64,000 bases of DNA, taken from assembly GCA_900320225.1 (NCBI GenBank), contig ONRL01000002.1, positions 3,236 to 67,235 of the forward strand. The letters run 5' to 3'. The position numbers were made by a program, and so were the translations under genes. The notes beneath the pieces are model-generated. The model was given only the letters and a program-made list of their open reading frames with translations. It did not search any database and was not told where the DNA came from. Below are positions 1,615-41,610 of the stretch, in pieces. The stretch's first letter is position 1. Each line of letters starts with the position of its first letter. This DNA is from an uncultured Lentisphaerota bacterium (GTDB taxonomy: Bacteria > Verrucomicrobiota > Kiritimatiellia > RFP12 > UBA1067).

Positions 1615-4469
1615 TATGCTACCTCCTCGACCTGTTCACCCTTGACGACGAATACCCCCGGAGCGGTCTCCGAAAAGTAGAGAAGCGTCACACCCTTTGC
1701 CGTCGCCGTTCCGTCGGCAAGCGCGGGGATCGCGCCGTCGGCGTTTTCTAGCGTTATCGTCTCGCCACTCGGTGCAACGGGGACGAGCGCGGGAGCCGTA
1801 AGCGCGGCGTCGCCAGTGCCGATCTCCACGCGAAGCCCGAAGTCGCGCACCTTGCCGCTTGTCGCGGCGGGGAACGTGATGCGCAGTTCGTCGAGCGGGG
1901 TCGCCGCAGTAACCTGCACGATGTTCGCCGTGCGGTTGGCAAGCGTCGCCGCGCCGTAGTAGACCGTCTCGCCCTCGACGGTTTCCGAGGACGCTGTGTT
2001 GATTACGATTGGGGTGCCGAGGGAGTAGTGAAGGTCGGCGGCTCTCGCCACGTCCTGCACCGCGATGCCGCTGTCATCCAGTGTTGTGCCATCGTCGCCA
2101 ATCCCAAACGCGGCAAGATTGCCGGGGGTTATGAGCAGTGGCGGTTTTATAAGCTTGGTTGTACCCCAGCACGAGGCGTTCCACGTTCCGCCGGTAGTCT
2201 GGACAATGCAAGTGTACACCTTGCCGTTGTAGGTGCAGTGGTCGCCCACGGCGTATATCCTAGCCGCCGACTCCGAGAACGCGGGCGCGGCGGAGGTCGC
2301 GTCGAGCTTGCCCGCGAACCGGCTCGCGCACCAGTCGTATAGCGACGAAAAGCCCGTCGGGAGCGCGGCGAGCGCACCCCAGATCGCCGACCAGATGCCG
2401 CCGCTCTTCACGGGGTTGTTGCTCCCCGCCGTCGGGGTGTTGTCGAAGGTCAGCACATCCTGCTTGCCCTGCCGCAGCGCCTCCGCCTCCGCCTCGCTCG
2501 CCAATATATGGTCCGTATCACTGCCGAGCTGGTAGCCGGGGAGAGCCGTGCGGGTGGCGGAAACTTGATCTCCTGTGTCGCTGATGTAAAACGACAGGCT
2601 TGTCGCGGATTTGTCGGGACTCCCGTCGGCCTTCGCTGGTTCACTCGCAGGCTGGTTCACATACCACCCCGGGCCTCCGAGCGCATGCCATTCGTCGTCT
2701 GTCCAGAAGGGCTGGCCTAGCTCCCAAGGTACATCGTTGAACACGACCTCGCTCGGCGTCAGAGTCCACTCGCTGAACCCGCGCTCCGTGAGCGTCGCGT
2801 CCGCCTTCGTCGCAAGCGTATCCGTCCCCGCCGTCGCCCTCTTCTCCACCACTACCCCAGCAAGCTCGGGATAGCCGGAGCTACCCTCTGCCGTGAACTG
2901 CGTCGCCGCGTTCGCCGCCGCCTCCGTATCGTACATCTCCTCGGATGCGCTCATCGCCGAGCCGTCGCCGGAGATGAACCACTTGTACTTCATGCCGGAC
3001 GCCGAGATATAGGCCCCCACGGCGACACCGATCGTGAGCGACGGATACAGGGCCTGTACCACGGACAGATCCCACGCCGCCGCCCCGTCGTACACCTTAA
3101 GGTCGGTCTTGTCGCGCTTCCCCGCTATCTTGGAATCCACCACCGCCACCGTTGCGGCATTGTCCACCTTCGCCTTGTCCGCGTCCGTGTAGTCGTTGGT
3201 CGAGAGCCCCTTGCCCGCCTCCTTCTGCACGAACCGCGCGTCCACCGCCATCTTGTCGTAGTAGTTTGCAGGATTGAAGATGTCGGTGAGGGGGATGCTT
3301 ATCGGCTGCTTGCCTGCTTCCGTGTTGAAGGTTATGACGAGATTCCCGTCGTCAATCTCCACGTTATCCACCATCCCGTCTATCGCAAACCGCGCCATGT
3401 TCACTTGCGCAACAACGGTATCGCCGTGCTTGAGGTACAGGATGTTTTTGTGGTCGCCCGTGCCCAATGCCGCGCCATCAACAAATTGCATCACCGCCGC
3501 GGGATCCAGTTTGGCGTTCCAATTCAGACGGTCCTGCTTGGACACATGGATCGGATTGCCGGCAACCTCGGTCGCGCCCGACGCATGACTCCGGAGCAGT
3601 CCGACGGCGGTTTCTATGTCGTCGGCGTTTTTCGCTATGCGCTCGGCATTCCGCCCCACCAGATCAGACACTGCGTTTACCGCCGCACCCGTAGACGCCG
3701 CGTCGGCAGCACGTCCGTCCTCAACTTCTTCTTGGGTCAGCGGATCCACCGGAGGCTGTATTGAGTCACGGGCCTCCTCTGCGGCCGTAGCAGCGGCGGA
3801 GGCATTACTTGCAGAGGAGGCTGCTGCGCTTGCAGAGTTCGCGGCAAGGCCCGCCGAGCCCGCTGCTGCATTCGCGCTTCCGGTAGCTGTCGCAGCCGCA
3901 TCCGTTGCTACGGTCTTTGCGGACTGCGCCTGCGCGACGATCCCCGATGCCTCGTCAACCGCTTCCTCTATTGCGGTCTGCGCCGCCGCTATCGCGTCCT
4001 TCGCTTCCTGGACAAAGTCCGGGTAGTCGTCAAGGCTGTACGGCTCGTCCGCCGGACGCATCTTGGGCCACGGCTCCACACGAAACTCGCCGGCGCCGTA
4101 CATCGTATGGTTCACGGGATCGTCCAGTATGCAGAGGCATTCGCCGCCGCAGCGAAGGAGCTTTTCCGCCGGGATGGAGTTGAGGTTCAGTTCGCACGCG
4201 GCATCGGAAGGATCTTCCGGGTCTTCACTCCACTCATCCGTCGGTTCGGACGGATCCGCATCCGGCTGTTCCGGCCTGGGGAACATGGCGACCGTGTGCC
4301 CGCCGAAAAGCACTCGCAGACGAAGCGTCTGGCCTTCCGCGTCTTCGCCTGGCTGTATCCACTCCGCGCCGCCAATCACCCTGACGGACACATGCTCCCC
4401 CGCAGCAACCGTGCCGACGAGCTTCAGTCTCTTCTTGCCGTAGTCGGGTATTATCGTAAGTGCCGTCAT
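1614..4469 (-). CDS. Tail fibre / large structural protein (951 aa)
   Basis: Large ORF at the distal end of the head module. It has a long Ala/Ser/Asn low-complexity stretch (AAATATGSANAAAGSAGLAANSASAAASSASNASAAATAAEEA). It also has a CBM5/12-like motif, YAVGDHCTYNGKVYTCIVQTTGGTWNASCW. Confidence 0.6.
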   Translation of the reverse strand: MTALTIIPDYGKKRLKLVGTVAAGEHVSVRVIGGAEWIQPGEDAEGQTLRLRVLFGGHTVAMFPRPEQPDADPSEPTDEWSEDPEDPSDAACELNLNSIPAEKLLRCGGECLCILDDPVNHTMYGAGEFRVEPWPKMRPADEPYSLDDYPDFVQEAKDAIAAAQTAIEEAVDEASGIVAQAQSAKTVATDAAATATGSANAAAGSAGLAANSASAAASSASNASAAATAAEEARDSIQPPVDPLTQEEVEDGRAADAASTGAAVNAVSDLVGRNAERIAKNADDIETAVGLLRSHASGATEVAGNPIHVSKQDRLNWNAKLDPAAVMQFVDGAALGTGDHKNILYLKHGDTVVAQVNMARFAIDGMVDNVEIDDGNLVITFNTEAGKQPISIPLTDIFNPANYYDKMAVDARFVQKEAGKGLSTNDYTDADKAKVDNAATVAVVDSKIAGKRDKTDLKVYDGAAAWDLSVVQALYPSLTIGVAVGAYISASGMKYKWFISGDGSAMSASEEMYDTEAAANAATQFTAEGSSGYPELAGVVVEKRATAGTDTLATKADATLTERGFSEWTLTPSEVVFNDVPWELGQPFWTDDEWHALGGPGWYVNQPASEPAKADGSPDKSATSLSFYISDTGDQVSATRTALPGYQLGSDTDHILASEAEAEALRQGKQDVLTFDNTPTAGSNNPVKSGGIWSAIWGALAALPTGFSSLYDWCASRFAGKLDATSAAPAFSESAARIYAVGDHCTYNGKVYTCIVQTTGGTWNASCWGTTKLIKPPLLITPGNLAAFGIGDDGTTLDDSGIAVQDVARAADLHYSLGTPIVINTASSETVEGETVYYGAATLANRTANIVQVTAATPLDELRITFPAATSGKVRDFGLRVEIGTGDAALTAPALVPVAPSGETITLENADGAIPALADGTATAKGVTLLYFSETAPGVFVVKGEQVEEVA

Positions 4470-4486: not shown

Positions 4487-4930
4487 CTATGCTGTCGGCG
4501 CATTAGCCGCGCCACTGTTTTTCGCCTTGGCCGCCTTGATCACGTCCGCACGCTCTATTTCCGTCTGCGCGTTGCGTATCTCCCCGACGACAAGCGCAAG
4601 ATCAGACGCGTGGAAAAGCAGATCCACGGGGCCCTCCGGCCTGATGAGAACGTCAATCTTCATCGGCTCCTTTTCGAGTGCCTTGGAAAAGCCCTGGACG
4701 AAAAGGTCAAACGCGGCGTCGTCGTTCGCGGCGTTCAGAAGTGGACCGACTATCGGGGCAAGCTCCGGCTTCACGTTCACAAGCGCGGTTTCGGCAAGTG
4801 CCGGGTTTGCCTCCGCGGCATACACCGCGCCAAGGCCCATGAGTTTCTTTGGCGACATGGCGGGAAATCTCGGACAGACCTCTTTCCCGTACCATCTTGC
4901 TATGCCCTTCACGATCGCCGCTCTAGTCAT
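4487..4930 (-). CDS. Hypothetical structural-module protein (147 aa)
   Basis: Intact ORF co-oriented within the late operon. No family recognised. Confidence 0.5.
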   Translation of the reverse strand: MTRAAIVKGIARWYGKEVCPRFPAMSPKKLMGLGAVYAAEANPALAETALVNVKPELAPIVGPLLNAANDDAAFDLFVQGFSKALEKEPMKIDVLIRPEGPVDLLFHASDLALVVGEIRNAQTEIERADVIKAAKAKNSGAANAPTA

Positions 4931-18707: not shown

Positions 18708-19033
18708 TTGAAGAAACGCCAATGATACGGCAATACAAGCACTTAAAGTGCGAGGCTCCTCTTGGTAGCCTGTTGCTCTTCAGGCTGGGCGACTTCTTCG
18801 AGGCGTTCGGGGATGACGCCGTCCGCTTGTCGGCGGCCTTTGATGTTCCGTGCGGTCTTCGCGGCGGGGTGTCGATGGCGGGTTGCCTATGCGACTCGTT
18901 TTGGGAGTTGGCGCGCCGACTTACGGCGTCCGGCATTGTGTTTGTGATTGCGGAGGAAATGGAATCTCGCGCTGGTTCGCGTCTCCCGCGGCGCGAGATA
19001 GTGCGCACGGTAAAAGGAGGGCCGATAGAATGA
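18704..19033 (+). CDS. Stand-alone MutS domain I (mismatch-recognition domain) homologue, 109 aa
   Basis: TPMIRQYKHLKCEAPLGSLLLFRLGDFFEAFGDDAVRLS...VSMAG...IVFVIAEEM...REIVRTVKGG aligns by eye, colinearly, with E. coli MutS residues ~10-115 ([38 protein letters not shown]...IPMAG...SVAICEQ...RKVVRIVTPG). The F-x-E mismatch-contact motif is kept (F31, E33). Confidence 0.75.
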   Translation: MIEETPMIRQYKHLKCEAPLGSLLLFRLGDFFEAFGDDAVRLSAAFDVPCGLRGGVSMAGCLCDSFWELARRLTASGIVFVIAEEMESRAGSRLPRREIVRTVKGGPIE

Positions 19034-20387: not shown

Positions 20388-20596
20388 GCTTGCTAGGCCT
20401 CTTCAGGAGTAAGCCGAAGCGCTGCCCGCACTGGAAGCGCGACCTGTCCGTCATCGGAGACCGGCACGAGGGGTGCCGGACCTGCAAGCGCCGCATCGGC
20501 AAATGGCCGTGCTCGCTGATCGCCGTGCGCGGCGTCCCGACGATACCCGACGTGCCGTATCCCGACGCGCCGTATCCCGACGCGCCGAAAATTTAG
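20384..20596 (+). CDS. Hypothetical Cys-containing protein (70 aa) with a PDVPYPDAPYPDAP tail
   Basis: ATGA-coupled to the upstream gene. Confidence 0.45.
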   Translation: MSLLGLFRSKPKRCPHWKRDLSVIGDRHEGCRTCKRRIGKWPCSLIAVRGVPTIPDVPYPDAPYPDAPKI

Positions 20597-20601
20597 TACC
20601 A

Positions 20602-20643
20602 CTGTTGCCGCAACATTTTTGCTATAATCTACTGCGGCAACAG
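20602..20643 (+). promoter_or_regulatory. Perfect 11-bp inverted repeat bracketing an extended -10 (TGcTATAAT)
   Basis: CTGTTGCCGCA at 20602-20612 and TGCGGCAACAG at 20633-20643. TGCTATAAT sits at 20620-20628, inside the 20-nt spacer. The element is about 30 nt upstream of the 20673 gene. Confidence 0.55.
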
Positions 20644-20672
20644 AAATTACAATTTTAACAGGGAGACAGAAA

Positions 20673-21008
20673 ATGCCGTATGTCAAAGGTGTGGGGTATG
20701 TCCGCAAGACCAAAAGCAAGGAAGAGTTGTCAGCCCTGCGATCCCAACTGGGAAAGCAAGGCGGCGCCAAGCGCAAGGCGATGGGCTATGCTGGAGTGGG
20801 CCGCAAAAAAGGCTGGACTAAGGATCCGGCGCTAAGGGCTATCCCGTCGAAGACGCTGACGGTGAGGGAGCCGGACTACAATGTGTTCGTCCGCCTGGCG
20901 AGCGTCCAGGGCGTCGCAATCGTCGAGTTCATGCACATCGTCGCGGAGAGCCTGCGCGGGAAGAACGCGGAGCTGTTCGCGCCGGACGCGCCGCGGGTCA
21001 CGGTGTAG
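20673..21008 (+). CDS. Basic N-terminus plus RHH-like DNA-binding protein (111 aa)
   Basis: RBS GGGAGACAGAAA precedes the ATG. The C-terminal segment KTLTVREPDYNVFVRLASVQGVAIVEFMHIVAESL has a strand-helix-helix pattern. Confidence 0.45.
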   Translation: MPYVKGVGYVRKTKSKEELSALRSQLGKQGGAKRKAMGYAGVGRKKGWTKDPALRAIPSKTLTVREPDYNVFVRLASVQGVAIVEFMHIVAESLRGKNAELFAPDAPRVTV

Positions 21009-21016
21009 GCAAGCCG

Positions 21017-21229
21017 CTAGCCGTACCAGGGGGCGTCGTCGTAGCCGTCGCTGTGCGACCGAGACGACACCATTAGACAAAACGTCCACACGAGGTATGC
21101 CACAAATGCTACCCTAACACACCATTTTACGACAGGATAGACAGTTTTGTTTTCGGCGTCGTCGCTGTGAAGCCAGCCAAATGCGGCGATAAACAGCGCA
21201 AGCGCAATAAGTATCGTCGCCAGTTTCAT
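21017..21229 (-). CDS. Small two-TM membrane protein (70 aa), operonic with the Mrr-like gene
   Basis: Its start has a 4-nt ATGA overlap with the upstream gene's stop. Hydrophobic segments are LATILIALALFIAAFGWL and VAFVAYLVWTFCLMV. Confidence 0.5.
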   Translation of the reverse strand: MKLATILIALALFIAAFGWLHSDDAENKTVYPVVKWCVRVAFVAYLVWTFCLMVSSRSHSDGYDDAPWYG

Positions 21230-22416
21230 GTGTTTTGTGGTTGTTTGGGGTGGTCGTAGGCGTCAATCAATCGCGCAGCTTCTGATAAGATTCCCCAGAG
21301 TTTTTCTGGCGAAATGGCCTCTGTTGAAATACGGTAGGGTTGAATGTCGGATTGGGTCACACCAAACGCAAGCTTGGAACGATGGCGAAACATCCGGGCG
21401 ATTTCATCAGGTAAAACCAGCTTTGTCCTGTACGCCGCTATGAAACGAAGCAACATCCATAGTTGACTGTGTCTGTTGCGCAATCGCGAATTGTTTTTCA
21501 ATCGCCTAATCACTGTGTCACCAGCGCGATTGATTAGCTCTTGTCTCGCTTCGGCGGACATAATGTTTTCGGGGTCACCATACATTCTCCATAGCTGCCT
21601 CACGACCAGAAAAAGTCCATCTTCGTTTTGTGTATGTCTCTTGCTGGGCTTGGTTGTTTCTGGCTCGACGCCGTAATTGCCATACCTGAAAGAGACTTCG
21701 ACGCCTCCAAAATTGGACCCGTAGTCATCTAGCTCTTGGAGCGCCTTCTCGTAAGTGTCTGCTGAGATGATGCTGACGCCTGCTTTTTGGGAGTATGTAT
21801 TAACCACCCTGATCGGCGGTGTATCACAGACCAGCCAGGCGTCCTGACACGACAGCACCGACGCGGCGGCGCTTATGGCCTGTATGGCGCGGACGATACC
21901 TACCGTGCTGTGATACGCAGATACGGCGATGCGCTTGTCGCCAGATTCCAGGACGAAGTCGCAGCCAGGAACAAAGCGGGTGTCTGTTCTTTCGATATGA
22001 TCATAGGCCCATGTATACGTGGTGAGGCTGCGAACGGTGGCCTCACGTATGGCGCGCGCCTGGTTCTCGATCAGCGCTTTCAGCTGGCTATAGTGAAGTA
22101 ATTGCACCTTGGCCTTATTGGCTAGTTCGTATGCGGACTTAGAAAAGCGTGTGTTGGAAACTACAGCGGCATCGTCGCAATCCCAGAATATTTTTCCCGC
22201 CACCACTTGTTGAACCGCATCATTGCCGACCAAGTTCTCTGAATAAAATTTACACTGTATGGCAATTTTCTTGTTGCCTACATAAGCGATCGCATCTACC
22301 CCCTGATCCCCACTTTCAGGTGTAAGTTTGCATTTGAAGCCGCACGACTCAACCATCGCCAACACGGCTTTCTCGAAGTCGATTCCGTTGTTTACGATGT
22401 AGATTTGCTGTTTCAC
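21226..22416 (-). CDS. Mrr-cat (PD-(D/E)xK restriction-endonuclease-fold) protein with a degenerate second copy and a helical C-terminal domain (396 aa)
   Basis: The N-terminal FEKAVLAMVESCGF...GDQGVDAIAY...KIAIQCKFY...VVSNTRFSKSAYELA matches the Mrr_cat pattern (D ... QxK). Residues ~150-235 repeat the fold without the Lys (DFVLESGDKRIAVSAYHS). It uses a GTG start, and its GC content is visibly lower than the flanks. Confidence 0.65.
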   Translation of the reverse strand: MKQQIYIVNNGIDFEKAVLAMVESCGFKCKLTPESGDQGVDAIAYVGNKKIAIQCKFYSENLVGNDAVQQVVAGKIFWDCDDAAVVSNTRFSKSAYELANKAKVQLLHYSQLKALIENQARAIREATVRSLTTYTWAYDHIERTDTRFVPGCDFVLESGDKRIAVSAYHSTVGIVRAIQAISAAASVLSCQDAWLVCDTPPIRVVNTYSQKAGVSIISADTYEKALQELDDYGSNFGGVEVSFRYGNYGVEPETTKPSKRHTQNEDGLFLVVRQLWRMYGDPENIMSAEARQELINRAGDTVIRRLKNNSRLRNRHSQLWMLLRFIAAYRTKLVLPDEIARMFRHRSKLAFGVTQSDIQPYRISTEAISPEKLWGILSEAARLIDAYDHPKQPQNT

Positions 22417-22423
22417 ATTGCGA

Positions 22424-22432
22424 ATTATACCA
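22424..22432 (-). promoter_or_regulatory. Extended -10 (TGgTATAAT on the minus strand) just upstream of the Mrr-like gene
   Basis: The reverse complement of 22424-22432 reads TGGTATAAT. Only 7 nt separate it from the GTG start, implying a leaderless or near-leaderless mRNA. Confidence 0.4.
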
Positions 22433-22492
22433 CTTCCCCGCCGCCCCTTGTAGGTGCTTGTAAAAAAAAATCAAAATTTTACAGGATTGTGC

Positions 22493-22522
22493 TTGCATAG
22501 TGTCGCGACACTATGATATTAT
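22493..22522 (+). promoter_or_regulatory. Promoter (TTGCAT, 18 bp spacer, TGaTATTAT) with operator O1 in the spacer
   Basis: O1 is the 16-bp perfect palindrome TAGTGTCGCGACACTA at 22498-22513, lying between the -35 (22493-22498) and the -10 (22517-22522). Confidence 0.6.
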
Positions 22523-22560
22523 ATCCGCGCAACCCCCAAATAGGGGAAAGGAACCACATC

Positions 22561-22836
22561 ATGCCAAGTCGAATGGGAAAACATAAAGAAGGAAAATCAA
22601 GTATCGGCTTGTATGTCGATGACGATTTTCGCGCCCTTCTCGCGTTTTTGGTGGATCAGACAGGTGAGACAGCTACTGATATCATCATGGATGGAGTACG
22701 GGCACGGGCCACGGCCTTGGGAATTATGCGCAACGACCAGATATTGCCCGAATACCTACCAGCAATAGCTGTCATCAAAGAGGCTTTTACAGCAAAGAGG
22801 GTAATGCGCCACGCGCAGAAGGGAGTCAAAAAGTGA
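22561..22836 (+). CDS. RHH (CopG/Arc-like) regulator (91 aa)
   Basis: RBS GGGGAAAGGAACCACATC precedes the ATG. SSIGLYVDDDFRALLAFLVDQTGETATDIIMDGV has a strand-helix-helix pattern. Confidence 0.5.
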   Translation: MPSRMGKHKEGKSSIGLYVDDDFRALLAFLVDQTGETATDIIMDGVRARATALGIMRNDQILPEYLPAIAVIKEAFTAKRVMRHAQKGVKK

Positions 22837-23000
22837 AGTCAAAATACTCGGACAAGTTCAGAGCAGCCGCAAAGGCATCAAAACTTTCGCCCGCAAAATT
22901 CGCAATGAAAGTACGCGATCTTCTTTCGCCAACGAAGTGTCGCGACACTAAACGACTTTTTTCTGCTCGCACCATGCAGGCCATTTCTTGTCAAGCATAA
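22833..23000 (+). CDS. Possible 55-aa ORF (GTG start, VKSKYSDKFRAAAKASKLSPAKFAMKVRDLL...)
   Basis: GTGA overlap with the upstream stop. It spans operator O2 and ends at O3. Support is weak. Confidence 0.25.
   Translation: MKSKYSDKFRAAAKASKLSPAKFAMKVRDLLSPTKCRDTKRLFSARTMQAISCQA
22936..22949. promoter_or_regulatory. Operator O2 (AGTGTCGCGACACT)
   Basis: The same 14-bp perfect palindrome core as O1 and O3. Confidence 0.6.
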
Positions 23001-23018
23001 GTGTCGCGACACTATAAG
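22988..23018 (+). promoter_or_regulatory. Promoter-like element (TTGTCA ... TATAAG) with operator O3 in the spacer
   Basis: O3 is AGTGTCGCGACACT at 23000-23013. The local context GCATAAGTGTCGCGACACTAT mirrors that of O1 (GCATAGTGTCGCGACACTAT). Confidence 0.5.
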
Positions 23019-23035
23019 CTAACCTAGGTGATACC

Positions 23036-23206
23036 ATGAAAGCCACTCCACCCAAGGACGAATACATCAACACCCCGGTCAGGCCGGAGGTCAAAGCTGC
23101 ACTGCGCGAACGTGCCGCGGAGAACGGGCGCGCCATAGGGCGCGAGGCATCGCTGATCCTGACGAAGGCCGTAATGCGCGGCAAGACACAGGAGAACCAG
23201 CCATGA
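23036..23206 (+). CDS. RHH-type small regulator (56 aa)
   Basis: MKATPPKDEYINTPVRPEVKAALRERAAENGRAIGREASLILTKAV. Below the track's size cut-off. Confidence 0.45.
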   Translation: MKATPPKDEYINTPVRPEVKAALRERAAENGRAIGREASLILTKAVMRGKTQENQP

Positions 23207-23388
23207 ACAAACCGAAGGAACTGAAGCTCGTCGAACGTCAAAAGCCGGAGTCGTACTCCGAAACGCTCGCGGTGCGCGTGAAGCCGTCCGAGAAGGCGGT
23301 GGTCCGCGAGTACGCCGAGAAGCACGGCGCCACCCTCGATACGGTTATGCGCTCCGCGCTCGTCGCCGCGGGCATACTTGCAGCATAG
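23203..23388 (+). CDS. RHH-type small regulator (61 aa)
   Basis: ATGA-coupled to the upstream gene. Key segment: ETLAVRVKPSEKAVVREYAEKHGATLDTVMRSALV. Confidence 0.45.
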   Translation: MNKPKELKLVERQKPESYSETLAVRVKPSEKAVVREYAEKHGATLDTVMRSALVAAGILAA

Positions 23389-23390
23389 GG

Positions 23391-23789
23391 GTGCTCCACA
23401 GCTCAACCATGACGCACTACCTCCCAAGAGAGTTCGTGAACGAGAGATTGAGACTCACCGTCCCGACCTCGTACCGCATACTCGGCGACGCACGCCACTA
23501 CGGCGCGCGCATCTCGTCCGACTGGGTGGTGGAGTTGCTGAACCGCGCGCGCCGCGGGTACGCCGCCGGAGACGCACTGCGGGGCATCCCTTCTGACCTT
23601 CTGACCGGCGAGGAGCTGGCCTCGGAGATGGCGGAGAGCCACATCACGGCGCACGATCTCCTCAACTGGTCCAGCCGGAAGAAGAACATCGTGCCGCACT
23701 TCCGCCTCACGTCGCACACGCGCCTCTACCGGCGCGAGGACGTCGAGCGTTGGCTGGAGACGCGCTGCGTATCAAGGAGGACCGCATGA
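23391..23789 (+). CDS. Excisionase/MerR-type HTH protein (132 aa)
   Basis: C-terminal segment LTGEELASEMAESHITAHDLLNWSSRKKNIVPHFRLTSHTRLYRREDVERWLE. The start is GTG at 23391 or ATG at 23409. Confidence 0.4.
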   Translation: MLHSSTMTHYLPREFVNERLRLTVPTSYRILGDARHYGARISSDWVVELLNRARRGYAAGDALRGIPSDLLTGEELASEMAESHITAHDLLNWSSRKKNIVPHFRLTSHTRLYRREDVERWLETRCVSRRTA

Positions 23790-26915: not shown

Positions 26916-27413
26916 ATGGCAAACGAAAACGGTGCAATCGGCTGGGACGACGACGTCTCCGAATCTGAAGTCAAGGGCGGCGGCAAACGCGAAGATTTCG
27001 TGGTTCTGCCGGACGGCGAATATCCCTTCGCCGTCGCGAAGGTAGAGCGCGGAACGTTCGCGGGATCGAAGAAGGTCCCGCCCTGCAACAAGGTGGATGT
27101 AGGGGTTATCATCGACGGCGGCGACAAGGGTCGCTCCTACGTCACCAAGATGTTCCTCATGCACACAACGACGCTTGGGTTCATCTACGAGTTCCTGACC
27201 TCGCTGGGGCTGCACAAGAAAGGCGAGGGGGCGGGCCCTATCCCCTGGGGCAAGGTCCAGAACGGCATGGAGGGCCGCTGCAAGGTCTCCTCCAGGACGT
27301 ACACCACGCGCGACGGCGAGAGCCGCACGTCGAACGAGGTGAAGAAATGGCTCGCGCCGGCTGCTGCATCGGAACAGTCGGGATTGTCCGACGATCTGGA
27401 CGACCTGAAATGA
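26916..27413 (+). CDS. DUF669-family (phage SSB-like) protein (165 aa)
   Basis: RBS AAAAGGAGTAAGAAC precedes the ATG. It sits beside a Sak4-like ATPase and has an acidic C-terminal tail (SDDLDDLK). Confidence 0.55.
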   Translation: MANENGAIGWDDDVSESEVKGGGKREDFVVLPDGEYPFAVAKVERGTFAGSKKVPPCNKVDVGVIIDGGDKGRSYVTKMFLMHTTTLGFIYEFLTSLGLHKKGEGAGPIPWGKVQNGMEGRCKVSSRTYTTRDGESRTSNEVKKWLAPAAASEQSGLSDDLDDLK

Positions 27414-30070
27414 CACTGCGTCCGTATCAGAAAAAGGCCGTCGAGGCAGTGGAGGCGGAGTTCGGCAAACCGGACATCCGCTCCACCCTCATTGTCCTCG
27501 CGACGGGGTGCCACGCCATTGGCGAGAAAGTGCTTCTCGCCAATGGCGACTCGGCAAGCGTAGAGAACGTCCATGCCGGAGATTTTTTGCTCGGCATGGA
27601 CGGAACGCCGCGTCGCGTACTTGCCGTCCATCATGGCCATAAGCCATGCTATGAAATATCGCCAATCAAAGGCAAGCAGTTTGTCGTCACGGAAGACCAC
27701 ATGCTTTCGCTCGTGAAAACATCCATACGCCGAAACGGATTTCCGTCGCAGATTGGCGGCGATGTCGTTGACCTTACGGTAAAAGAATATATCGGCAAAT
27801 CAAAAACGTACAAGCATCAGCACAAGCTCTTTCGTGCGCCGATGATTGCATTCCCCGTGAAGGAGACACCCCTGCCGATACCCCCGTACATTGTCGGCGT
27901 CATGCTTGGGGACGGCGGACTAAAGTACAGCATAAACGTTACCACAGCAGAGCCGGAAGTGCTCGAGGCGTTGAGTTCGTATGCAAGATCGCTTGGCTAT
28001 ACGCTACGACCTGAACCTGCCGGTCTTGCAAATACGTGGATATTTCAGACTGGCGAAATCGGCTGCAACGGATCGCGTTTGCGCGGGATGCTCGCTCGTT
28101 TGGGGCTTTGGGGTTGCGGTAGCGGAGAAAAGCGCATACCGCGACAGTATCTGACGTCTTCAATCAAGGACAGGCTAGAGCTGCTTGCCGGTCTCATTGA
28201 CACAGACGGCTCAAAATCAAGCAATGGAAGTTGTGACTACATAACAAAGTCGCCGCGTCTGGCAGACGACATTTGTTTCGTGTGTAGATCGCTTGGTCTT
28301 GCGGCATACTCAAGCGTCTGCAAAAAATCAATTAAAAGCATTGGGTTCGTTGGTACGTATTACCGGATATCGGTTAGCGGAGACTTGTCTGTGATTCCAA
28401 CGCGAGTGCCTCGCCGCAAGTTTGACGTTAGGCGTCAGAAGAAATCAGTTTTGCGTACAGGTTTTTCAATACGGCCAGTCGGCGTGAAAGAATACTTCGG
28501 CTTTACAGTTGACGGCGACAACCGCTATTTGCTTGACGATTTCACCGTCACGCACAACTGCGGGAAGACCATCATCTTCTCGCACCTCGCCCAGCGCGAA
28601 GTGATGCGGGGCGGACGTGTCCTTATCCTCGCACACCGCGGCGAACTCCTCCAGCAGGCAATCGACAAGCTCTACAAGGCCACTGGGATAGAAGCCGGGC
28701 TTGAGAAGGCCGAGGAGACGAGCGAAGTCTCAAGCTTCGATCTGCCGTATACGGTGGTCGTCGGATCCGTCCAGTCGATGAAATCGCAGAGACGGCTTGA
28801 CCGATTCCGCAGCGACGAGTTTTCGCTTATCGTGATCGACGAGTGCCACCATGCGCTTACCAGCACTTATCGTGCTGTTATAGACCATTTTCCCCATGCG
28901 CGCCTCCTCGGCGTCACCGCCACACCGGACCGCGGCGACCTGCGCGACCTCTCCGAGGTGTTCCAGACGATTTCCTACGAGTATTCGATAGTGGACGCCA
29001 TCCGCGACGGCTACCTGTGCCCGATACAGGCGCAGACAGTGCCTCTAAGGATTGACCTCACCCAGGTCTCCAAGCAGGGCGGCGACTACCAGGCCTCATC
29101 CCTCGGCAATGCGCTCGACCCGTATCTGAGGCAGATTTGCCGCGAAATAAAGGAACGCTGCCATGACAGAAAGACGATTGTTTTTACTCCTCTTATCGCG
29201 ACCTCGCGAAAGATGTTGCAGATTTTTGTGGAAGAGGGCGTACAGGAAGTGCGCGAAGTTAACGGAGAAAGTACAGACCGAGCCGATATCCTTGACTGGT
29301 TCTCTCAGGCTCCGGCAGGCTGCGTACTTCTCAATTCTATGCTTCTCACGGAAGGATATGACGAGCCGTCTGTTGATTGCATTGTTGTTCTTCGGGCAAC
29401 GAAGGTTCGCGCCCTATTTGTCCAGATGGTTGGGCGTGGAACCCGCCTCTCGCCTTCCACCGGAAAGCAGAATCTGCTTCTTCTCGATTTTCTGTGGCTT
29501 ACATCGACGCACGACCTGTGCCGTCCTGCTTGTCTCCTGTCTGACGATCCAGAGGTGTGCGAGACGATAACAAAGAAGCAGGAAAGCAAGGACGGCCAGG
29601 CGGCGCTCGACCTGACGGCGGAAACTCTGGAATCGGCGGAATCCGAGACCGTGAAGAAACGGGAGGACGCGCTGGCGAAGAAGCTCCGCGAACAGGCACA
29701 CAAAAAGGGGAAGCTGATAGACCCGCTTGCCTATGCCTCGATGATCGGCTCCGAAGACCTCACGAAGGCTATTCCGGCATCACTCGACCAGTCGAACCGC
29801 CCCACGATGGAACAGCTGGACCGGCTTGAACGCCTCGGGTTTGCCTGCCCCGGCTCCGCATCCGCCGCCGATGCGTTATTGACAGCCTATCAACAGCGTG
29901 TTGACAGCGGGCTTTCCACCCCGCGCCAGATCAAGTTTCTGTCGTCGCGCGGCTTCCGCAACGTGGAGACGTGGCCCATGCAGGCCGCGCAGAAGCTCAT
30001 CAACCGCTTTGCGGCCTGCGGGTGGAACCGCATTCCCGCCGGAATCAATCCGGAGACCTACACGCCATGA
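27410..30070 (+). CDS. SF2 DEAH-box helicase (ResIII/Helicase_C type) interrupted by an intein (886 aa precursor)
   Basis: The P-loop is split as LATG | intein | CGKT. Other helicase motifs are VIDECHH (motif II), GVTATPDR (III) and TEGYDEPSVDCIVVLRATKVRALFVQMVGRGTR (V-VI). The start MTLRPYQ is ATGA-coupled. Confidence 0.8.
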   Translation: MTLRPYQKKAVEAVEAEFGKPDIRSTLIVLATGCHAIGEKVLLANGDSASVENVHAGDFLLGMDGTPRRVLAVHHGHKPCYEISPIKGKQFVVTEDHMLSLVKTSIRRNGFPSQIGGDVVDLTVKEYIGKSKTYKHQHKLFRAPMIAFPVKETPLPIPPYIVGVMLGDGGLKYSINVTTAEPEVLEALSSYARSLGYTLRPEPAGLANTWIFQTGEIGCNGSRLRGMLARLGLWGCGSGEKRIPRQYLTSSIKDRLELLAGLIDTDGSKSSNGSCDYITKSPRLADDICFVCRSLGLAAYSSVCKKSIKSIGFVGTYYRISVSGDLSVIPTRVPRRKFDVRRQKKSVLRTGFSIRPVGVKEYFGFTVDGDNRYLLDDFTVTHNCGKTIIFSHLAQREVMRGGRVLILAHRGELLQQAIDKLYKATGIEAGLEKAEETSEVSSFDLPYTVVVGSVQSMKSQRRLDRFRSDEFSLIVIDECHHALTSTYRAVIDHFPHARLLGVTATPDRGDLRDLSEVFQTISYEYSIVDAIRDGYLCPIQAQTVPLRIDLTQVSKQGGDYQASSLGNALDPYLRQICREIKERCHDRKTIVFTPLIATSRKMLQIFVEEGVQEVREVNGESTDRADILDWFSQAPAGCVLLNSMLLTEGYDEPSVDCIVVLRATKVRALFVQMVGRGTRLSPSTGKQNLLLLDFLWLTSTHDLCRPACLLSDDPEVCETITKKQESKDGQAALDLTAETLESAESETVKKREDALAKKLREQAHKKGKLIDPLAYASMIGSEDLTKAIPASLDQSNRPTMEQLDRLERLGFACPGSASAADALLTAYQQRVDSGLSTPRQIKFLSSRGFRNVETWPMQAAQKLINRFAACGWNRIPAGINPETYTP
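27509..28558 (+). mobile_element. Intein (350 aa) with a LAGLIDADG homing-endonuclease domain
   Basis: It begins with Cys (CHAIGEKVLLANG) and has block B VTEDHMLSL. The LAGLIDADG motifs are YIVGVMLGDGGL and LELLAGLIDTDGS. It ends ...DDFTVTHN, followed by a +1 Cys (CGKT). Its GC content is lower than that of the exteins. Confidence 0.85.
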
Positions 30071-33218: not shown

Positions 33219-33432
33219 AGGCATGGTGTCCGAAATGTGCGAGTACGCCGACGGGATCGCAAACCCGATGATAAGCGACCGCATCAAAGAATACGGCGAC
33301 CTCATCCTCGCCGCCGTTGAAGCAGAGCGAAAGGAATGGCAGAAGGAGCGGCTGACTTGGGAGCGGCGCGTGAAGATGGCCGCGAGTGTGGCTAAGGCAA
33401 AAGGCGGCAAAGTTGTGGAGGCGGGGAAATGA
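33208..33432 (+). CDS. Hypothetical protein (74 aa)
   Basis: RBS GGAGAAGGAGGACGGCA precedes the ATG at 33208. Confidence 0.45.
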   Translation: MTTEGMVSEMCEYADGIANPMISDRIKEYGDLILAAVEAERKEWQKERLTWERRVKMAASVAKAKGGKVVEAGK

Positions 33433-35096
33433 GGACCTTGAACACAGTAGACCTTTTCTGCGGCGCAGGCGGCGCATCCACAGGCATGGAGGACGCCTTG
33501 CACCGCATGAAACTGCACCACAAGGGGCTTGCAATAAATCATTGGGCCGTGGCCGTGGACACAATGCGCGCAAACCACCCCGACATTGACACCAAGCGCA
33601 TGAGCATTGAAGAAGCGGTGCCGGCCGACCTCGTTCCGGGCGGCGAGGTTGACTTGCTCTGGGCGTCCCCGTCCTGCACACACCATAGCCGCGCCAAAGG
33701 CGGCAAGCCGCGCAGCAACCAACTGCGCGCACAGCCGGAGCTTGTGCTGACATGGCTCGATCAGCTTTTTGTGCGCCGTATCATCATTGAGAACGTCCCC
33801 GAATTTGTGGATTGGGGGCCACTCTCGAAGGACGGCAAGCCGATTGAGAAATTAAAAGGGTCATGCTTTAGGGCTTGGGTCGCGGCTATCGAGGCGCGCA
33901 ATTACGCCGTTGAATGGCGCGTAGTGAATTGCGCCGACTACGGCGACGCAACGAGCCGCCGCCGATTTTTCCTTAAGGCCGTCCGGCGCGGGTGCGGAAG
34001 GATATGCTGGCCGGAGCCTACTCACGCCGAGAACCCGCAGCCGGATTTATTCCGCAAGCTGAAGCCGTGGCGCGGCGTCCGCGAGTGCCTTGACCTATCC
34101 GACACGGGCCGGAGTATTTTCAACCGCAAGAAGCCATTGGCAAAGAATACCCTCCGCCGAATTGCTGTCGGCTTGCGTAAGTTTTGCGGGCTTGATTTTC
34201 AGATGGATATGCTGGGTGCGGGCGAGAACGACGAAACGCGGGTATTGCCGACGACCGCGCCGTTGCGGACACAGCACACGGCGAACCGCACGGCCATCGT
34301 GCGCCAGTTTGTGGTGCGCATGAACAGGAACTGCGACGCCGAGAGCGTGGACGCGCCGCTTTCCACTACGACGACGAAGGAACACCACGCCTTGTGTTCG
34401 CCGCTCATTCTGGATCACTTCAAGAACGGCGAGGCACAGAGCGTGGACGCGCCTATTGGAACGCAGACGACGCACGACCGTTTCAGCATGGTTACGCCGT
34501 ATCTCATAACAGAGCAGACGAACAACGCGCCGCGAGGGATCGACAAGCCGCTCCGGACGCAGACGATGGTGTGCAAAGACTACCTCTGCACTCCGCTAAT
34601 TTTGGGGCAACAGGGTGGCGCGGCTTGCCGACCGATTGACGAGCCATGCCCGACGATTGCGACTGGCGGCGCGGTGCGGATGATTACGCCGCTTGTTTTG
34701 GGGCGCGACGCTTGCGCACAATGCCGCCCGGTGACGAAGCCCATGCCGACCCTTACTTGCGGCGGCGCGATGCGCGTAATCACGCCGCTGATCCTTGACA
34801 TGAGCCGACCAGGAGGAGCCGATGGCGGACACATCCGCACGGCGGACAAACCGATTCAGACCTTGACGACGTGTGACAACGTGCAGGGCGTTTTCCCCGT
34901 GTTGGAAGACGGGCGCGTGATCGACATCCGCATCCGTATGCTGAAGCCGTCCGAACTTGCGGCGGCGCACAGCTTCCCGAAGGACTACGTGCTTACGGGC
35001 AACCGTGGTGAACAGGTGAAGCAGATCGGGAACAGCGTACCAGTTATGACAGCCGCCGCCATGTGCGAGGCAGACTTTCGGGAGATGGCATCATGA
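33429..35096 (+). CDS. DNA (cytosine-5)-methyltransferase with a 7-fold tandem module array in the variable region (555 aa)
   Basis: Motif I DLFCGAGGAS, motif IV ASPSCTHHS, motif VI ENVPEF, motif VIII SRRRFF, motif X QIGNSVPV. Between motifs VIII and IX lie seven modules of about 32 aa (residues ~271-492), each with xP[LIMC]xT[QTLI][TA]. Confidence 0.85.
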   Translation: MRTLNTVDLFCGAGGASTGMEDALHRMKLHHKGLAINHWAVAVDTMRANHPDIDTKRMSIEEAVPADLVPGGEVDLLWASPSCTHHSRAKGGKPRSNQLRAQPELVLTWLDQLFVRRIIIENVPEFVDWGPLSKDGKPIEKLKGSCFRAWVAAIEARNYAVEWRVVNCADYGDATSRRRFFLKAVRRGCGRICWPEPTHAENPQPDLFRKLKPWRGVRECLDLSDTGRSIFNRKKPLAKNTLRRIAVGLRKFCGLDFQMDMLGAGENDETRVLPTTAPLRTQHTANRTAIVRQFVVRMNRNCDAESVDAPLSTTTTKEHHALCSPLILDHFKNGEAQSVDAPIGTQTTHDRFSMVTPYLITEQTNNAPRGIDKPLRTQTMVCKDYLCTPLILGQQGGAACRPIDEPCPTIATGGAVRMITPLVLGRDACAQCRPVTKPMPTLTCGGAMRVITPLILDMSRPGGADGGHIRTADKPIQTLTTCDNVQGVFPVLEDGRVIDIRIRMLKPSELAAAHSFPKDYVLTGNRGEQVKQIGNSVPVMTAAAMCEADFREMAS

Positions 35097-39022: not shown

Positions 39023-39151
39023 ATGAGGATTTATATTTCTGGTTGTATGACGGACCATCCCGACATCAACTGCCCCGCGTTCAGCGCGGAGGAGTTCGTG
39101 CCGACGCCGCATCCGAAGCCGAGGTTCCAGCAGGAGGAGCTGTTCAAATGA
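39023..39151 (+). pseudogene. 42-codon remnant resembling the N-terminus of a DUF4406 (deoxyribosyltransferase-like) protein
   Basis: MRIYISGCMTDHPDINCPAFSA matches the family's opening (M.IYI.GPMtG.p..N.paF.a). The rest of the fold is absent. Confidence 0.35.
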
Positions 39152-40704: not shown

Positions 40705-41610
40705 ATGCAAAAGTACATACGATGCCACATGGTCGAAGCCGAGCCGATGACGCGCGGAGACTATAACATCTCTCGCGGCGAGCCGTGCAATCTGAACGGA
40801 GCGCCAGAAGACGAGGGCTACCATGTCGTCCATCCCGACGGCTACGAGTCGTGGTGCCCCAAGGCGCAGTTCGAAGCCGCAGGCCGTCCAATCGACAGCA
40901 TGACGTTCGGCATGGCGATCGAAGCCATGAAGAAAGGCGCGAAGGTCGCCCGTCGCGGCTGGAACGGCAAGGGTATGTTCCTGTGGCTGAAACCAGCGAC
41001 AAGCATCAAGGCGGAGTGGTGCAAGGATGAAACGCTGAAAGGTCTCGTCGAAGCCAACGGCGGCGAAATCCTCGGCCTCGGCACCATCTGCATGTACACG
41101 CACGACGCCACGGGCCGCAAGGCAATTCTTACGGGTTGGCTCGCTTCGCAGTCCGATATGCTCTACGAAGATTGGGTTGTCGTGGAGAATGCCGCCGCCA
41201 ACACCATCCGCATCGAGGCCGGCGTCCGCTATCCAGAAGACGGCAACATCAACTGCATTGCCGACGACAACGACAACCCAAAGATGCCATTCCTTGTGCC
41301 AGATCCCGACAGCAAAGGCGAATGGCGCTGGAACCTCGACGTCAACATCGACACCGGCGAGGTCTCCGACTGGCCGAAGGGCGTTGTTGCCGATGTCCAC
41401 TACAAGGTCTGCGACTGCTGCCGCATTAAGTACGGCGACAAGAATTACGAGAACTACGTCCCGGACTTCCTGTCTATCAACGACGAAGGTTATGGGGACT
41501 ATGTGATACTCACCGTAGAAGACGGACGAATAAAGAACTGGGACGCCGCCAAATGCCGTGGCTTCATCAATGATTATCTCGCCATAACCGACACACAGAA
41601 GGAGGACTAA
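40705..41610 (+). CDS. Three-domain protein with a central DUF2829 (Tad2-like) domain (301 aa)
   Basis: The centre, MTFGMAIEAMKKGAKVARRGWNGKGMFLWL...WLASQSDMLYEDWVVVE, matches the DUF2829 pattern. The N-terminal ~60 aa include GYHVVHPDGYESWCPKAQFEAA. The C-terminal ~140 aa are unassigned. Confidence 0.65.
   Translation: MQKYIRCHMVEAEPMTRGDYNISRGEPCNLNGAPEDEGYHVVHPDGYESWCPKAQFEAAGRPIDSMTFGMAIEAMKKGAKVARRGWNGKGMFLWLKPATSIKAEWCKDETLKGLVEANGGEILGLGTICMYTHDATGRKAILTGWLASQSDMLYEDWVVVENAAANTIRIEAGVRYPEDGNINCIADDNDNPKMPFLVPDPDSKGEWRWNLDVNIDTGEVSDWPKGVVADVHYKVCDCCRIKYGDKNYENYVPDFLSINDEGYGDYVILTVEDGRIKNWDAAKCRGFINDYLAITDTQKED

What the first reader, a model, noticed from the sequence alone, without database searches (positions are those of the whole stretch)
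21017..22416. Low-GC, opposite-strand two-gene insert: tandem Mrr-cat nuclease-fold protein plus a coupled 2-TM peptide (candidate exclusion/defence system)
Seen in sequence:
- Inside an otherwise uniform plus-strand, GC-rich early arm sit two minus-strand genes of visibly lower GC, joined by an ATGA overlap.
- The 396-aa protein opens with an intact Mrr-cat PD-(D/E)xK module (GDQGVDAIAY...IAIQCKFY).
- This is followed by a second copy of the same fold that has lost the catalytic Lys (DFVLESGDKRIAVSAYHS), and then by a ~150-aa helical domain with no match I recognise.
- The downstream gene encodes a 70-aa two-TM protein.
- The operon has its own TGgTATAAT element only 7 nt from a GTG start, and it abuts the operator-controlled switch region.

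Established knowledge: morons of this type in temperate phages are frequently lysogen-expressed anti-phage systems, and Mrr-cat domains are common effectors in them.

Inference: this is a two-component nuclease/membrane exclusion system of undescribed architecture.
Basis: partly seen in the sequence, partly recalled or inferred. Interest (0 to 1): 0.7.

Follow-up and report, generated by a model that had tools for sequence, protein, structure and literature searches.

The report
Phage nuclease plus membrane-peptide accessory cassette
An uncultivated gut phage carries a small, separately promoted two-gene insert: a DNA-cutting enzyme of the Mrr restriction-nuclease type followed by a tiny membrane protein. 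It is most likely a weapon against competing DNA, and it is a rare variant of a known theme rather than a new kind of system.

Summary
All sequence-level observations hold.

**The two genes**
- Two overlapping minus-strand genes (396 aa and 70 aa, ATGA overlap) form the lowest-GC stretch of the window.
- They are the only minus-strand genes in the plus-strand early arm.

**The 396-aa protein**
- An intact N-terminal Mrr_cat nuclease domain (E=2.9e-20).
- A degenerate second copy of the same fold, with the catalytic Q and K lost (hhalign 96.7%).
- A disordered linker.
- An orphan helical C-terminal domain.

**Other features**
- The 70-aa product has two hydrophobic segments.
- TGgTATAAT lies 7 nt before the GTG start and is conserved in a 49%-identical homologue. 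This suggests a leaderless mRNA.
- Three palindromic operators flank the neighbouring gene.

**Comparative findings**
- Only three lineages of the long protein turned up in billions of sequences.
- The 2-TM peptide always follows the nuclease; one lineage has a different small partner.
- Related phages carry other cargo at the same site.
- Operators co-vary with the adjacent small plus-strand gene, not with island proteins.
- No integrase was found in the circular 67.5-kb genome, so "lysogen-expressed moron" is unsupported.
- Mrr_cat relatives are often fused to TM anchors. One is a prophage moron, and the Epona defence protein is such a fusion.

**Verdict**
This is probably a membrane-coupled exclusion/defence nuclease: a new variant of a known kind, with function untested.

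The parts
21226..22416 (-). Gene for the 396-aa protein (GTG start at 22416, stop at 21226-21228)
   Evidence: ORF. An identical protein is on 9-10 contigs of about 67.6 kb. A full-length homologue, P0054, has 49% identity.
22063..22416 (-). N-terminal active Mrr_cat PD-(D/E)xK nuclease domain (residues 1-118; E15, D41, Q54, K56)
   Evidence: Pfam PF04471, E=2.9e-20. Catalytic residues are conserved in 44 sequences. AF2 pLDDT is above 90, and Foldseek hits are AF1548, MspJI and Hjc. Identity to P0054 is about 75% in this domain.
21721..22056 (-). Degenerate second Mrr_cat-like fold (residues ~121-232; D153 kept, catalytic Q and K replaced)
   Evidence: hhalign against the N-domain profile: 96.7%, P=3.4e-10. 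AF2 gives the same strand-helix order, at low confidence.
21562..21720 (-). Poorly conserved, probably disordered linker (residues 233-285)
   Evidence: pLDDT is below 50. Conservation against P0054 is low, with indels.
21253..21561 (-). Orphan helical C-terminal domain (residues 286-388; conserved R..H..LW, P, F, A.G, I.PY, AI, KLW)
   Evidence: It is found only in the three lineages of this protein. pLDDT is 65-84 and the domain is helical. There is no family or structure match.
21017..21229 (-). Gene for the 70-aa two-TM peptide; its ATG overlaps the upstream stop (ATGA)
   Evidence: ORF. TM segments are at residues 3-21 and 33-51. Homologues follow the nuclease gene with the same overlap in L007, L004 and L015.
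22424..22432 (-). Extended -10 element TGGTATAAT, 7 nt upstream of the GTG start (implies a leaderless or near-leaderless mRNA)
   Evidence: Sequence. It is conserved, with 9-nt spacing to the start codon, in L007. There is no Shine-Dalgarno sequence at a usable distance.
22461..22480 (-). A/T tract at about -38 to -56, in the UP-element position, conserved in L007
22496..22515 (.). Operator O1, a perfect 20-bp palindrome CATAGTGTCGCGACACTATG. It fills the spacer of the divergent plus-strand promoter (TTGCAT 22493-22498; TGaTATTAT 22514-22522).
22561..22836 (+). First plus-strand gene (91 aa, RHH-like by sequence pattern only). It is the likely operator-binding regulator and part of the same low-GC module (GC 0.486).
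   Evidence: Gene call in L001 and GC. Operators co-vary with this gene across phages. No family match was found.
22935..22950 (.). Operator O2 (AAGTGTCGCGACACTA)
22999..23014 (.). Operator O3 (AAGTGTCGCGACACTA), in the spacer of the promoter before the 56-aa RHH gene at 23036
   Evidence: The 56-aa protein matches FitA-like_RHH.

Best explanation
**What it is.** The cassette is an accessory two-gene operon acquired by exchange. It sits in a hypervariable, opposite-strand island of a family of uncultivated gut phages. These have an SU10-like portal and a 67.5-kb circular assembly, and the host is possibly Faecalibacterium.

**Expression (inferred).** Host RNA polymerase transcribes it from an extended -10 promoter whose start site falls on or next to the GTG. 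The mRNA would then be leaderless. The second gene would be translated by coupling through the ATGA overlap.

**The protein (anatomy shown, mechanism inferred).** The 396-aa product is a DNA endonuclease built as an internal pseudo-dimer of one active and one dead Mrr_cat fold. A flexible linker joins this to a private helical domain that probably supplies target recognition or sensing.

**The peptide (inferred).** The 70-aa two-TM peptide holds or gates the nuclease at the cytoplasmic membrane.

**Most likely role (inferred).** Cutting incoming foreign DNA, from competing phages or mobile elements, at or near the entry site. That is superinfection exclusion or defence. It would act during infection or in a carrier state rather than from an integrated prophage.

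**Status.** Shown: gene reality, domain anatomy, promoter conservation, co-occurrence and hot-spot location. Inferred: nuclease activity, membrane coupling and the exclusion role.
For: - Mrr_cat match with all catalytic residues.
- The N-domain is about 75% identical between lineages, against about 40% for the rest, so it is under the strongest constraint.
- The degenerate second fold is supported by hhalign.
- The ATGA-overlapping 2-TM peptide is conserved with the nuclease in window, L007, L004 and L015. In 5.8 billion clusters the peptide family has only three clusters. Every member whose context was read follows the nuclease gene.
- TGGTATAAT plus the A/T tract are conserved at a fixed distance from the start codon.
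- The cassette is the lowest-GC segment and has a GC3 deficit. The same holds for islands of relatives.
- The same site holds different minus-strand cargo in L005, L009 and L012.
- 31 of 48 nearest Mrr_cat relatives have predicted TM segments.
- P0026 (2 TM + Mrr_cat) is an opposite-strand single-gene insert in the early region of an integrated prophage.
- P0002 lies beside MmeI-type remnants, cpYpsA and DUF4268.
- Epona, an experimentally active anti-phage protein, is Mrr_cat fused to a 2-TM holin-like domain (bioRxiv 10.1101/2024.07.02.601686).
Against: - There are no functional data.
- PADLOC gives only domain-level hits to the nuclease ends of ZorD, PDC-S02 and mREase_IV, and nothing for the peptide.
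- No integrase or other lysogeny gene was found in the whole circular genome. The classical setting of prophage-encoded defence is therefore missing.
- In lineage L002/L003 the partner is an unrelated 86-aa protein, so the peptide is not obligatory.
- No sequence similarity links the peptide to the TM parts of fused relatives.
- The family is extremely rare, with three lineages, so the co-occurrence statistics are thin.
- GTG-initiated leaderless translation is inefficient in some bacteria (my own knowledge).
Confidence: 0.45

Rival explanations
1. Host-takeover nuclease. This would be an early phage enzyme that degrades unmodified host, or rival, DNA. The phage genome would be protected by its own C5 and N6/N4 DNA methyltransferases. 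The peptide would only localise or time the activity.
For: - The promoter is of the type read by host polymerase, so early expression is expected.
- The phage encodes two DNA methyltransferases.
- No lysogeny genes were found, so expression would occur during lytic growth.
Against: - Related phages with the same backbone lack the nuclease altogether and carry other cargo at the site. It is therefore not a core takeover function.
- The methyltransferase genes lie 11-18 kb away in other operons.
- The Mrr family is better known for cutting modified DNA (my own knowledge).
Confidence: 0.2
2. Regulatory or immunity protein. The 396-aa protein would occupy the cI-like position: divergent from the early operon and leaderless like lambda cI, with a membrane partner like rexB. 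Its C-terminal domain would bind DNA to control the switch.
For: - It lies next to a three-operator region.
- The transcript is of leaderless type.
- Relatives carry an XRE HTH protein in the equivalent island, and no XRE homologue exists elsewhere in the window phage.
- The C-domain is helical with an HTH-like helix pattern (weak).
Against: - Operators co-vary with the first plus-strand gene, not with island proteins. L005 and L009 have near-identical XRE proteins (by reading the two translations) but different operators, GGTTCAACCAACC against GGGTGGGACTTAT.
- The C-domain matches no DNA-binding family.
- The most conserved part is an intact nuclease, which a repressor would not need.
- No lysogeny module was found.
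Confidence: 0.1
3. Selfish free-standing homing-type endonuclease gene that spreads between related phages by cutting nuclease-less genomes at this site. The small downstream gene would be a passenger.
For: - Patchy presence at one conserved site among related phages, with lower GC and its own promoter.
- This phage group hosts other selfish elements. The helicase carries an intein. L012 has a 213-aa ORF that looks like an HNH/AP2-type endonuclease by eye; I did not test it.
Against: - The site holds varied multi-gene cargo rather than empty versus occupied alleles.
- The peptide is conserved and translationally coupled.
- Mrr_cat is not a recognised homing-endonuclease family (my own knowledge).
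Confidence: 0.07
4. Lysis-related pair. The two-TM peptide would be a class II-type holin, and the nuclease would act late.
For: - The size and two-TM topology resemble small holins.
- The TM part of Epona was described as holin-like.
Against: - The pair lies in the early arm, far from the structural and late genes, with no endolysin next to it.
- The C-terminal tail is acidic, not basic.
- There is no holin family match.
Confidence: 0.05

Closest known systems
Epona (single-protein anti-phage system from the Vibrio cholerae chromosomal integron; bioRxiv 10.1101/2024.07.02.601686)
   Same: It combines an Mrr_cat nuclease with a two-TM, holin-like membrane element in a compact mobile cassette.
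   Different: - Epona is one polypeptide. Here the membrane element is a separate, translationally coupled gene.
- The nuclease protein here also has a dead second nuclease fold and an orphan C-terminal domain.
- The carrier is a phage, not an integron.
TM-anchored Mrr_cat 'restriction endonuclease' proteins of bacteria and prophages (e.g. P0026 in locus L018)
   Same: - Same GDQGVD...IAIQCK Mrr_cat subfamily, 39-55% identity over the domain.
- Membrane association.
- P0026 is likewise an opposite-strand insert in a phage early region.
   Different: - They are fusions with N-terminal TM helices and no second fold or C-domain.
- Their TM parts show no similarity to the 70-aa peptide.
- Their function is not established.
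Mrr / Type IV modification-dependent restriction enzymes (PADLOC mREase_IV; MspJI, AspBHI structures)
   Same: Same catalytic fold and motif.
   Different: - The domain order is reversed, with the catalytic domain first.
- There is no recognisable N-terminal winged-helix or SRA-type reader.
- The match is confined to about 110 residues.
- Modification dependence is unknown.
Tandem active/inactive nuclease-fold enzymes such as Sau3AI, and heterodimeric R.BspD6I (recalled from my own knowledge; R.BspD6I small subunit appeared)
   Same: One catalytic and one non-catalytic copy of a restriction-nuclease fold work as a pseudo-dimer.
   Different: - There is no sequence relationship.
- Whether the dead copy here binds DNA, pairs with the active copy or mediates oligomerisation is unknown.
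Lambda cI-rexA-rexB arrangement (my own knowledge)
   Same: - An opposite-strand operon beside the operator region with a leaderless first cistron.
- A soluble nucleic-acid-related protein plus a small membrane protein implicated in exclusion.
   Different: - No repressor gene is in the operon.
- There is no homology to RexA or RexB.
- The phage has no detectable lysogeny genes.
- Operators track another gene.

Membership tests
Mrr_cat (PF04471) PD-(D/E)xK nuclease domain | Profile match above the curated cut-off | tested here: met
   73 bits against a cut-off of 21, E=2.9e-20, residues 11-116.
Mrr_cat (PF04471) PD-(D/E)xK nuclease domain | Catalytic residues present (helix Glu, Asp, Q/E-x-K) | tested here: met
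   E15, D41, Q54 and K56 are present. D41 and K56 are invariant in 44 sequences.
Mrr_cat (PF04471) PD-(D/E)xK nuclease domain | Metal-dependent DNA cleavage | not testable with these tools
   This needs biochemistry.
Type IV restriction enzyme of the Mrr type | N-terminal DNA-reader domain followed by a C-terminal catalytic domain | tested here: not met
   The catalytic domain is at residues 1-118. The PADLOC mREase_IV match covers only model positions 415-525. No reader domain was found.
Type IV restriction enzyme of the Mrr type | Cleavage depends on DNA modification | not testable with these tools
   This needs an assay on methylated and unmethylated DNA.
Epona defence system | Mrr_cat and two TM helices in one polypeptide | tested here: not met
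   The two elements are on separate, overlapping genes.
Epona defence system | Sequence homology to the Epona protein | not tested
   The sequence is not in the libraries at hand; a supplement search found nothing.
Epona defence system | Protects cells against phage | not testable with these tools
   This needs a phage challenge.
Known PADLOC systems (Zorya ZorD, PDC-S02, Lamassu LmuA) | Full-length match to the system protein and presence of partner genes | tested here: not met
   Only the ~110-residue nuclease portion aligns. Neither a helicase nor an SMC partner is nearby, and the peptide has no hit.
Temperate-phage moron | Own promoter and atypical composition, inserted between backbone genes | tested here: met
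   A conserved extended -10 element. GC 0.509 against 0.609. Variable cargo at the same site in relatives.
Temperate-phage moron | Own terminator | tested here: not met
   Only 8 nt separate the convergent stop codons, and no terminator-like site lies there.
Temperate-phage moron | Carrier phage is temperate (integrase or other lysogeny module) | tested here: not met
   The precomputed Pfam hits for the called genes across the whole 67.5-kb circle show no integrase, recombinase or partition hit. No prophage copy with host flanks was found.
Class II holin | Small protein with two TM helices | tested here: met
   Hydrophobic segments at residues 3-21 and 33-51.
Class II holin | Basic C-terminal tail and adjacency to an endolysin or lysis genes | tested here: not met
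   The tail SRSHSDGYDDAPWYG is acidic. The neighbours are early genes.

The most novel reading that the evidence does not exclude
The roughly 2-kb low-GC block 21017-23035 would be a swappable 'regulator-plus-weapon' module of non-integrating gut phages. It comprises the peptide, the nuclease, the divergent promoters, the private regulator and its three operators. Its nuclease-peptide pair would found a new family of membrane-coupled, pseudo-dimeric exclusion nucleases. These would be deployed by a lytic or carrier-state phage against competitors, and the orphan C-terminal domain would act as a new sensor of invading DNA or proteins.
Probability: 0.2. Interest if true: 0.6.

Novelty: new variant of a known kind. 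Interest (0 to 1): 0.4.

Why it matters
If the pair does exclude competing DNA, three things would follow.
- It would add a split, two-gene form to the membrane-linked Mrr_cat effectors, of which Epona is the only tested example.
- It would show such weapons carried by phages with no detectable lysogeny genes.
- It would supply a new C-terminal domain that may be a sensor.

The conserved hot spot, with a private regulator and operators that change from phage to phage, also offers a compact natural system for studying how gut phages swap regulatory and conflict modules. As it stands, this is a well-documented but functionally untested accessory cassette of very narrow distribution.

Tried and rejected
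1. **Stand-alone C-domain proteins.** P0050 (89 aa) and P0051 (159 aa) first looked like stand-alone proteins. Both are ORFs cut by contig ends. I withdrew the idea that the core is C-domain plus peptide.
2. **P0052.** This 2822-aa protein scored E=2.6e-10 against the middle domain. The score is the sum of nine weak matches to Listeria-Bacteroides-type repeats, so I judged it spurious.
3. **Fold searches for the middle and C-terminal parts.** The model was poor (mean pLDDT 53.6) and gave no hit below E=0.67. The BFVD search returned only N-domain matches.
4. **Profile of the C-domain against PDB sequences.** Only chance coiled-coil matches at E about 0.4.
5. **More relatives.** Nothing was found in GTDB genomes, IMG/VR or JGI metagenomes using N-terminal or C-domain patterns. 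The phage and plasmid collections gave N-domain-only hits. Megablast of the locus against phages found nothing.
6. **Peptide against TM regions of fused relatives.** No similarity.
7. **Rfam on 20500-23500.** No RNA family.
8. **The consensus sigma-70 scan missed the minus-strand promoter.** It lacks a -35 hexamer. I identified it by eye and by conservation.
9. **Synonymous versus non-synonymous counts among the close L007, L004 and L015 copies.** Too few changes to be informative.
10. **Family assignment of the 91-aa regulator.** No hit in Pfam, PHROGs or NCBIfam. 'RHH-like' rests on sequence pattern only.
Full report
**Observation**

The two ORFs are as described. One is 22416..21226 (396 aa, GTG start) and the other is 21229..21017 (70 aa). 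Both are on the minus strand and are joined by an ATGA overlap.

Gene calls on identical public contigs show that every other gene from 16023 to 45325 is on the plus strand.

The cassette has GC 0.509 against 0.609 for the window. The fifteen lowest-GC 1400-bp windows of the whole 64 kb start at 21051-21751. GC3 is 0.57-0.63 against 0.74-0.90 in 18 of 19 other genes. The exception is the adjacent 91-aa gene at 0.49.

The low-GC block extends over the intergenic region (0.438), the next plus-strand gene at 22561..22836 (0.486) and the following intergenic region (0.467). The unit of exchange is therefore about 2 kb, 21017-23035.

**The large protein**

- *N-terminal domain.* Residues 11-116 match Pfam Mrr_cat at E=2.9e-20. 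In an alignment with 43 relatives, D41 and K56 are invariant and E15 and Q54 nearly so. AlphaFold2 models this domain at pLDDT above 90. Foldseek finds AF1548, MspJI, AspBHI and archaeal Hjc.
- *Second fold copy.* I ran a local profile-profile comparison (hhalign) of residues 121-245, aligned with the homologue P0054, against the N-domain profile. It gives 96.7% probability, P=3.4e-10, over 104 columns. The Asp is retained (D153), but the Q-x-K positions read S-A-Y in the window and F-A-Q in P0054. AF2 gives the same order of strands and helices there, but at low confidence.
- *Linker.* Residues 233-285 are poorly conserved and modelled as disordered.
- *C-terminal domain.* Residues 286-388 form a helical domain (pLDDT 65-84). 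It has no match in Pfam, NCBIfam, PHROGs, PADLOC, PDB sequences or Foldseek.

**Distribution**

- The word-indexed search of 5.8 billion clusters found only the identical protein at full length. It is on 9-10 contigs of about 67.6 kb. The search also found 48 proteins sharing only the N-domain.
- An exhaustive HMMER search of 1.84 billion representatives with residues 121-396 found P0050 and P0051, plus one repeat-driven spurious hit, P0052.
- P0050 and P0051 are not small proteins. Both ORFs run off the contig end.
- P0050's 90% cluster hides a full-length 395-aa homologue, P0054. It is 49% identical overall, about 75% in the nuclease domain and about 40% elsewhere.

There are thus three lineages: the window phage, L007/L004/L015, and L002/L003. 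Pattern scans of GTDB genomes, IMG/VR and JGI metagenomes, and tblastn against the phage and plasmid collections, found no further full-length relatives.

**The small protein**

It has two hydrophobic segments, residues 3-21 and 33-51, and an acidic tail.

Homologues of 88 aa (39-41% identity, shared W-L-x-D-D...K...Y-P-x-V-K and S...D-D-x-P-x-Y motifs) follow the nuclease gene with the same four-base overlap in L007, L004 and L015.

A profile search found only these three clusters. Every known member of the peptide family therefore sits behind this nuclease.

In L002/L003 the downstream overlapping gene encodes an unrelated 86-aa protein.

**Expression signals**

TGGTATAAT lies at 22432..22424. 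It is followed by 7 nt and then the GTG. There is no Shine-Dalgarno sequence at a usable distance.

In L007 the same nonamer lies 9 nt before the ATG of the conserved MK(P/Q)QIYIV N-terminus. An A/T tract occupies the UP-element position in both phages, while the rest of the spacer has diverged.

Protein conservation starts at residue 2, so translation must start there. A leaderless or near-leaderless mRNA is the simplest reading; this is an inference.

The cassette converges on the 111-aa plus-strand gene with only 8 nt between stop codons and no terminator-like site.

**The switch region**

AGTGTCGCGACACT occurs three times, at 22499, 22936 and 23000, against 0.19 expected by chance. O1 fills the 18-nt spacer between TTGCAT and TGaTATTAT of the divergent plus-strand promoter. 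O3 fills the spacer of the promoter before the 56-aa RHH gene. O2 lies 64 bp upstream of O3.

The same one-plus-two layout recurs with other sequences:
- TGGTGGACTCCACCA in L007
- GGTTCAACCAACC in L005
- GGGTGGGACTTAT in L009

.

L005 and L009 have near-identical island XRE proteins (by reading the two translations) but unrelated first plus-strand genes and different operators. The operators therefore track that small gene, not the island proteins. This argues against the nuclease protein being the operator-binding repressor.

**Genomic setting**

Tiling the public contig shows the window is 64,000 of 67,506 bp of a circle. The contig is 67,647 bp with a 141-bp k-mer overlap.

Genes identified:
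- TerL and an SU10-like portal.
- Two DNA methyltransferases.
- A helicase with an intein.
- A 4142-aa polyvalent protein.

No integrase, recombinase or partition gene is seen. Relatives in genome collections are short MAG contigs, one binned with Faecalibacterium. A temperate lifestyle is therefore not supported.

Related phages carry other minus-strand cargo at the same site, all of lower GC than their flanks:
- L009: XRE HTH plus a TM protein.
- L005: XRE plus three other genes.
- L012: XRE plus 230-aa and 77-aa proteins.

The site is a hot spot for exchangeable cargo.

**What the relatives of the nuclease domain say**

- Of the 48 closest Mrr_cat relatives, 31 have at least one hydropathy-predicted TM segment. 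This is usually one or two N-terminal helices. One relative, P0013, has an N-terminal nuclease and a C-terminal anchor.
- P0026 (two TM plus Mrr_cat) is an opposite-strand single-gene insert between pRha and SSB genes of an integrated prophage.
- P0002 lies beside MmeI-type remnants, cpYpsA and DUF4268.
- A preprint describes Epona, an active anti-phage protein made of Mrr_cat fused to a two-TM holin-like domain.

Membrane-linked Mrr_cat nucleases are thus a recurrent conflict-associated theme. The window shows a split version of it.

**Conclusion**

The best reading (confidence 0.45) is an exchangeable accessory operon encoding a pseudo-dimeric Mrr-type endonuclease. It carries a private targeting or sensing domain and a coupled membrane peptide. 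It most likely excludes or destroys competing incoming DNA, and it is expressed from a host-type promoter during infection rather than from a prophage.

| Rival | Confidence |
|---|---|
| Host-takeover nuclease working with the phage methyltransferases | 0.2 |
| Regulatory or immunity role | 0.1 |
| Selfish homing-type gene | 0.07 |
| Lysis function | 0.05 |

It is not a member of any defined defence system in PADLOC. It fails the architecture test for Mrr-type Type IV enzymes and for Epona. I file it as a new variant of a known kind. The function is untested and the distribution is very narrow, so interest is moderate.

Noticed in passing
window 22496-22515, 22935-22950, 22999-23014; L007 5904-5918, 5969-5982, 6418-6432; L005 ~4031-4050, 4439-4455, 4496-4514; L009 8882-8898, 9340-9356, 9419-9435: A one-plus-two operator layout is conserved across at least four related phages. 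One operator lies in the divergent promoter, and two lie 57-79 bp apart before the second small gene. The operator sequence differs in each phage and co-varies with the first small plus-strand gene. This looks like a family of exchangeable regulator/operator specificities.
   Followed up: partly
window 45306-57734 (-): A 4142-aa 'polyvalent' protein. It has a Strawberry-notch-type helicase (AAA_34, Helicase_C_4; residues 2065-2759) and the LPD23 and LPD38 domains. Proteins of this type are thought to be injected with the DNA.
   Followed up: partly
window 27413-30070 (+): A DEAD/ResIII helicase (886 aa) carries Hint/Hom_end intein domains, according to precomputed Pfam hits.
   Followed up: no
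window 40705-41610 (+); L013:14962-15264 (outside the window): Two proteins with a Tad2-like (anti-Thoeris) domain. The 301-aa one scores E=1.6e-20.
   Followed up: no
window 18710-19033 (+): A stand-alone MutS domain I protein of about 107 aa (E=3.8e-14). It is also present in the relative L007.
   Followed up: no
window 33429-35096 (+) and ~39150-40680 (+): A C5 cytosine DNA methyltransferase and an N6/N4 DNA methyltransferase. They are relevant to whether the phage's own nuclease spares its DNA.
   Followed up: no
window 22416-22426 and 22897-22907: An exact 11-nt inverted repeat. The sequence around the nuclease start codon (AATTCGCAATG) recurs in the plus-strand orientation in the next intergenic region, again followed by AAA. 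About 0.06 such matches are expected by chance. Its meaning is unknown.
   Followed up: no
window 21009-21016: Only 8 nt separate the stop codons of the convergent 111-aa gene and the 2-TM gene, and there is no terminator. Plus-strand early transcription and cassette transcription should collide or produce antisense RNA.
   Followed up: no
L018:6001-6960: A two-TM plus Mrr_cat fusion protein (P0026). It is the only opposite-strand gene in the early region of an integrated prophage with integrase, pRha, SSB and ERF genes. This is a parallel to the window cassette.
   Followed up: partly
L012:8955-9596: A 213-aa ORF that looks like an HNH/AP2-type homing endonuclease is inserted next to the regulatory genes of a related phage. 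This was judged by eye only.
   Followed up: no
window 60929-63898 (-): A 989-aa structural-arm protein with Listeria-Bacteroides repeat domains (Flg_new, E=1.2e-32). It hints at a Gram-positive gut host, in line with the Faecalibacterium MAG contig L008.
   Followed up: no
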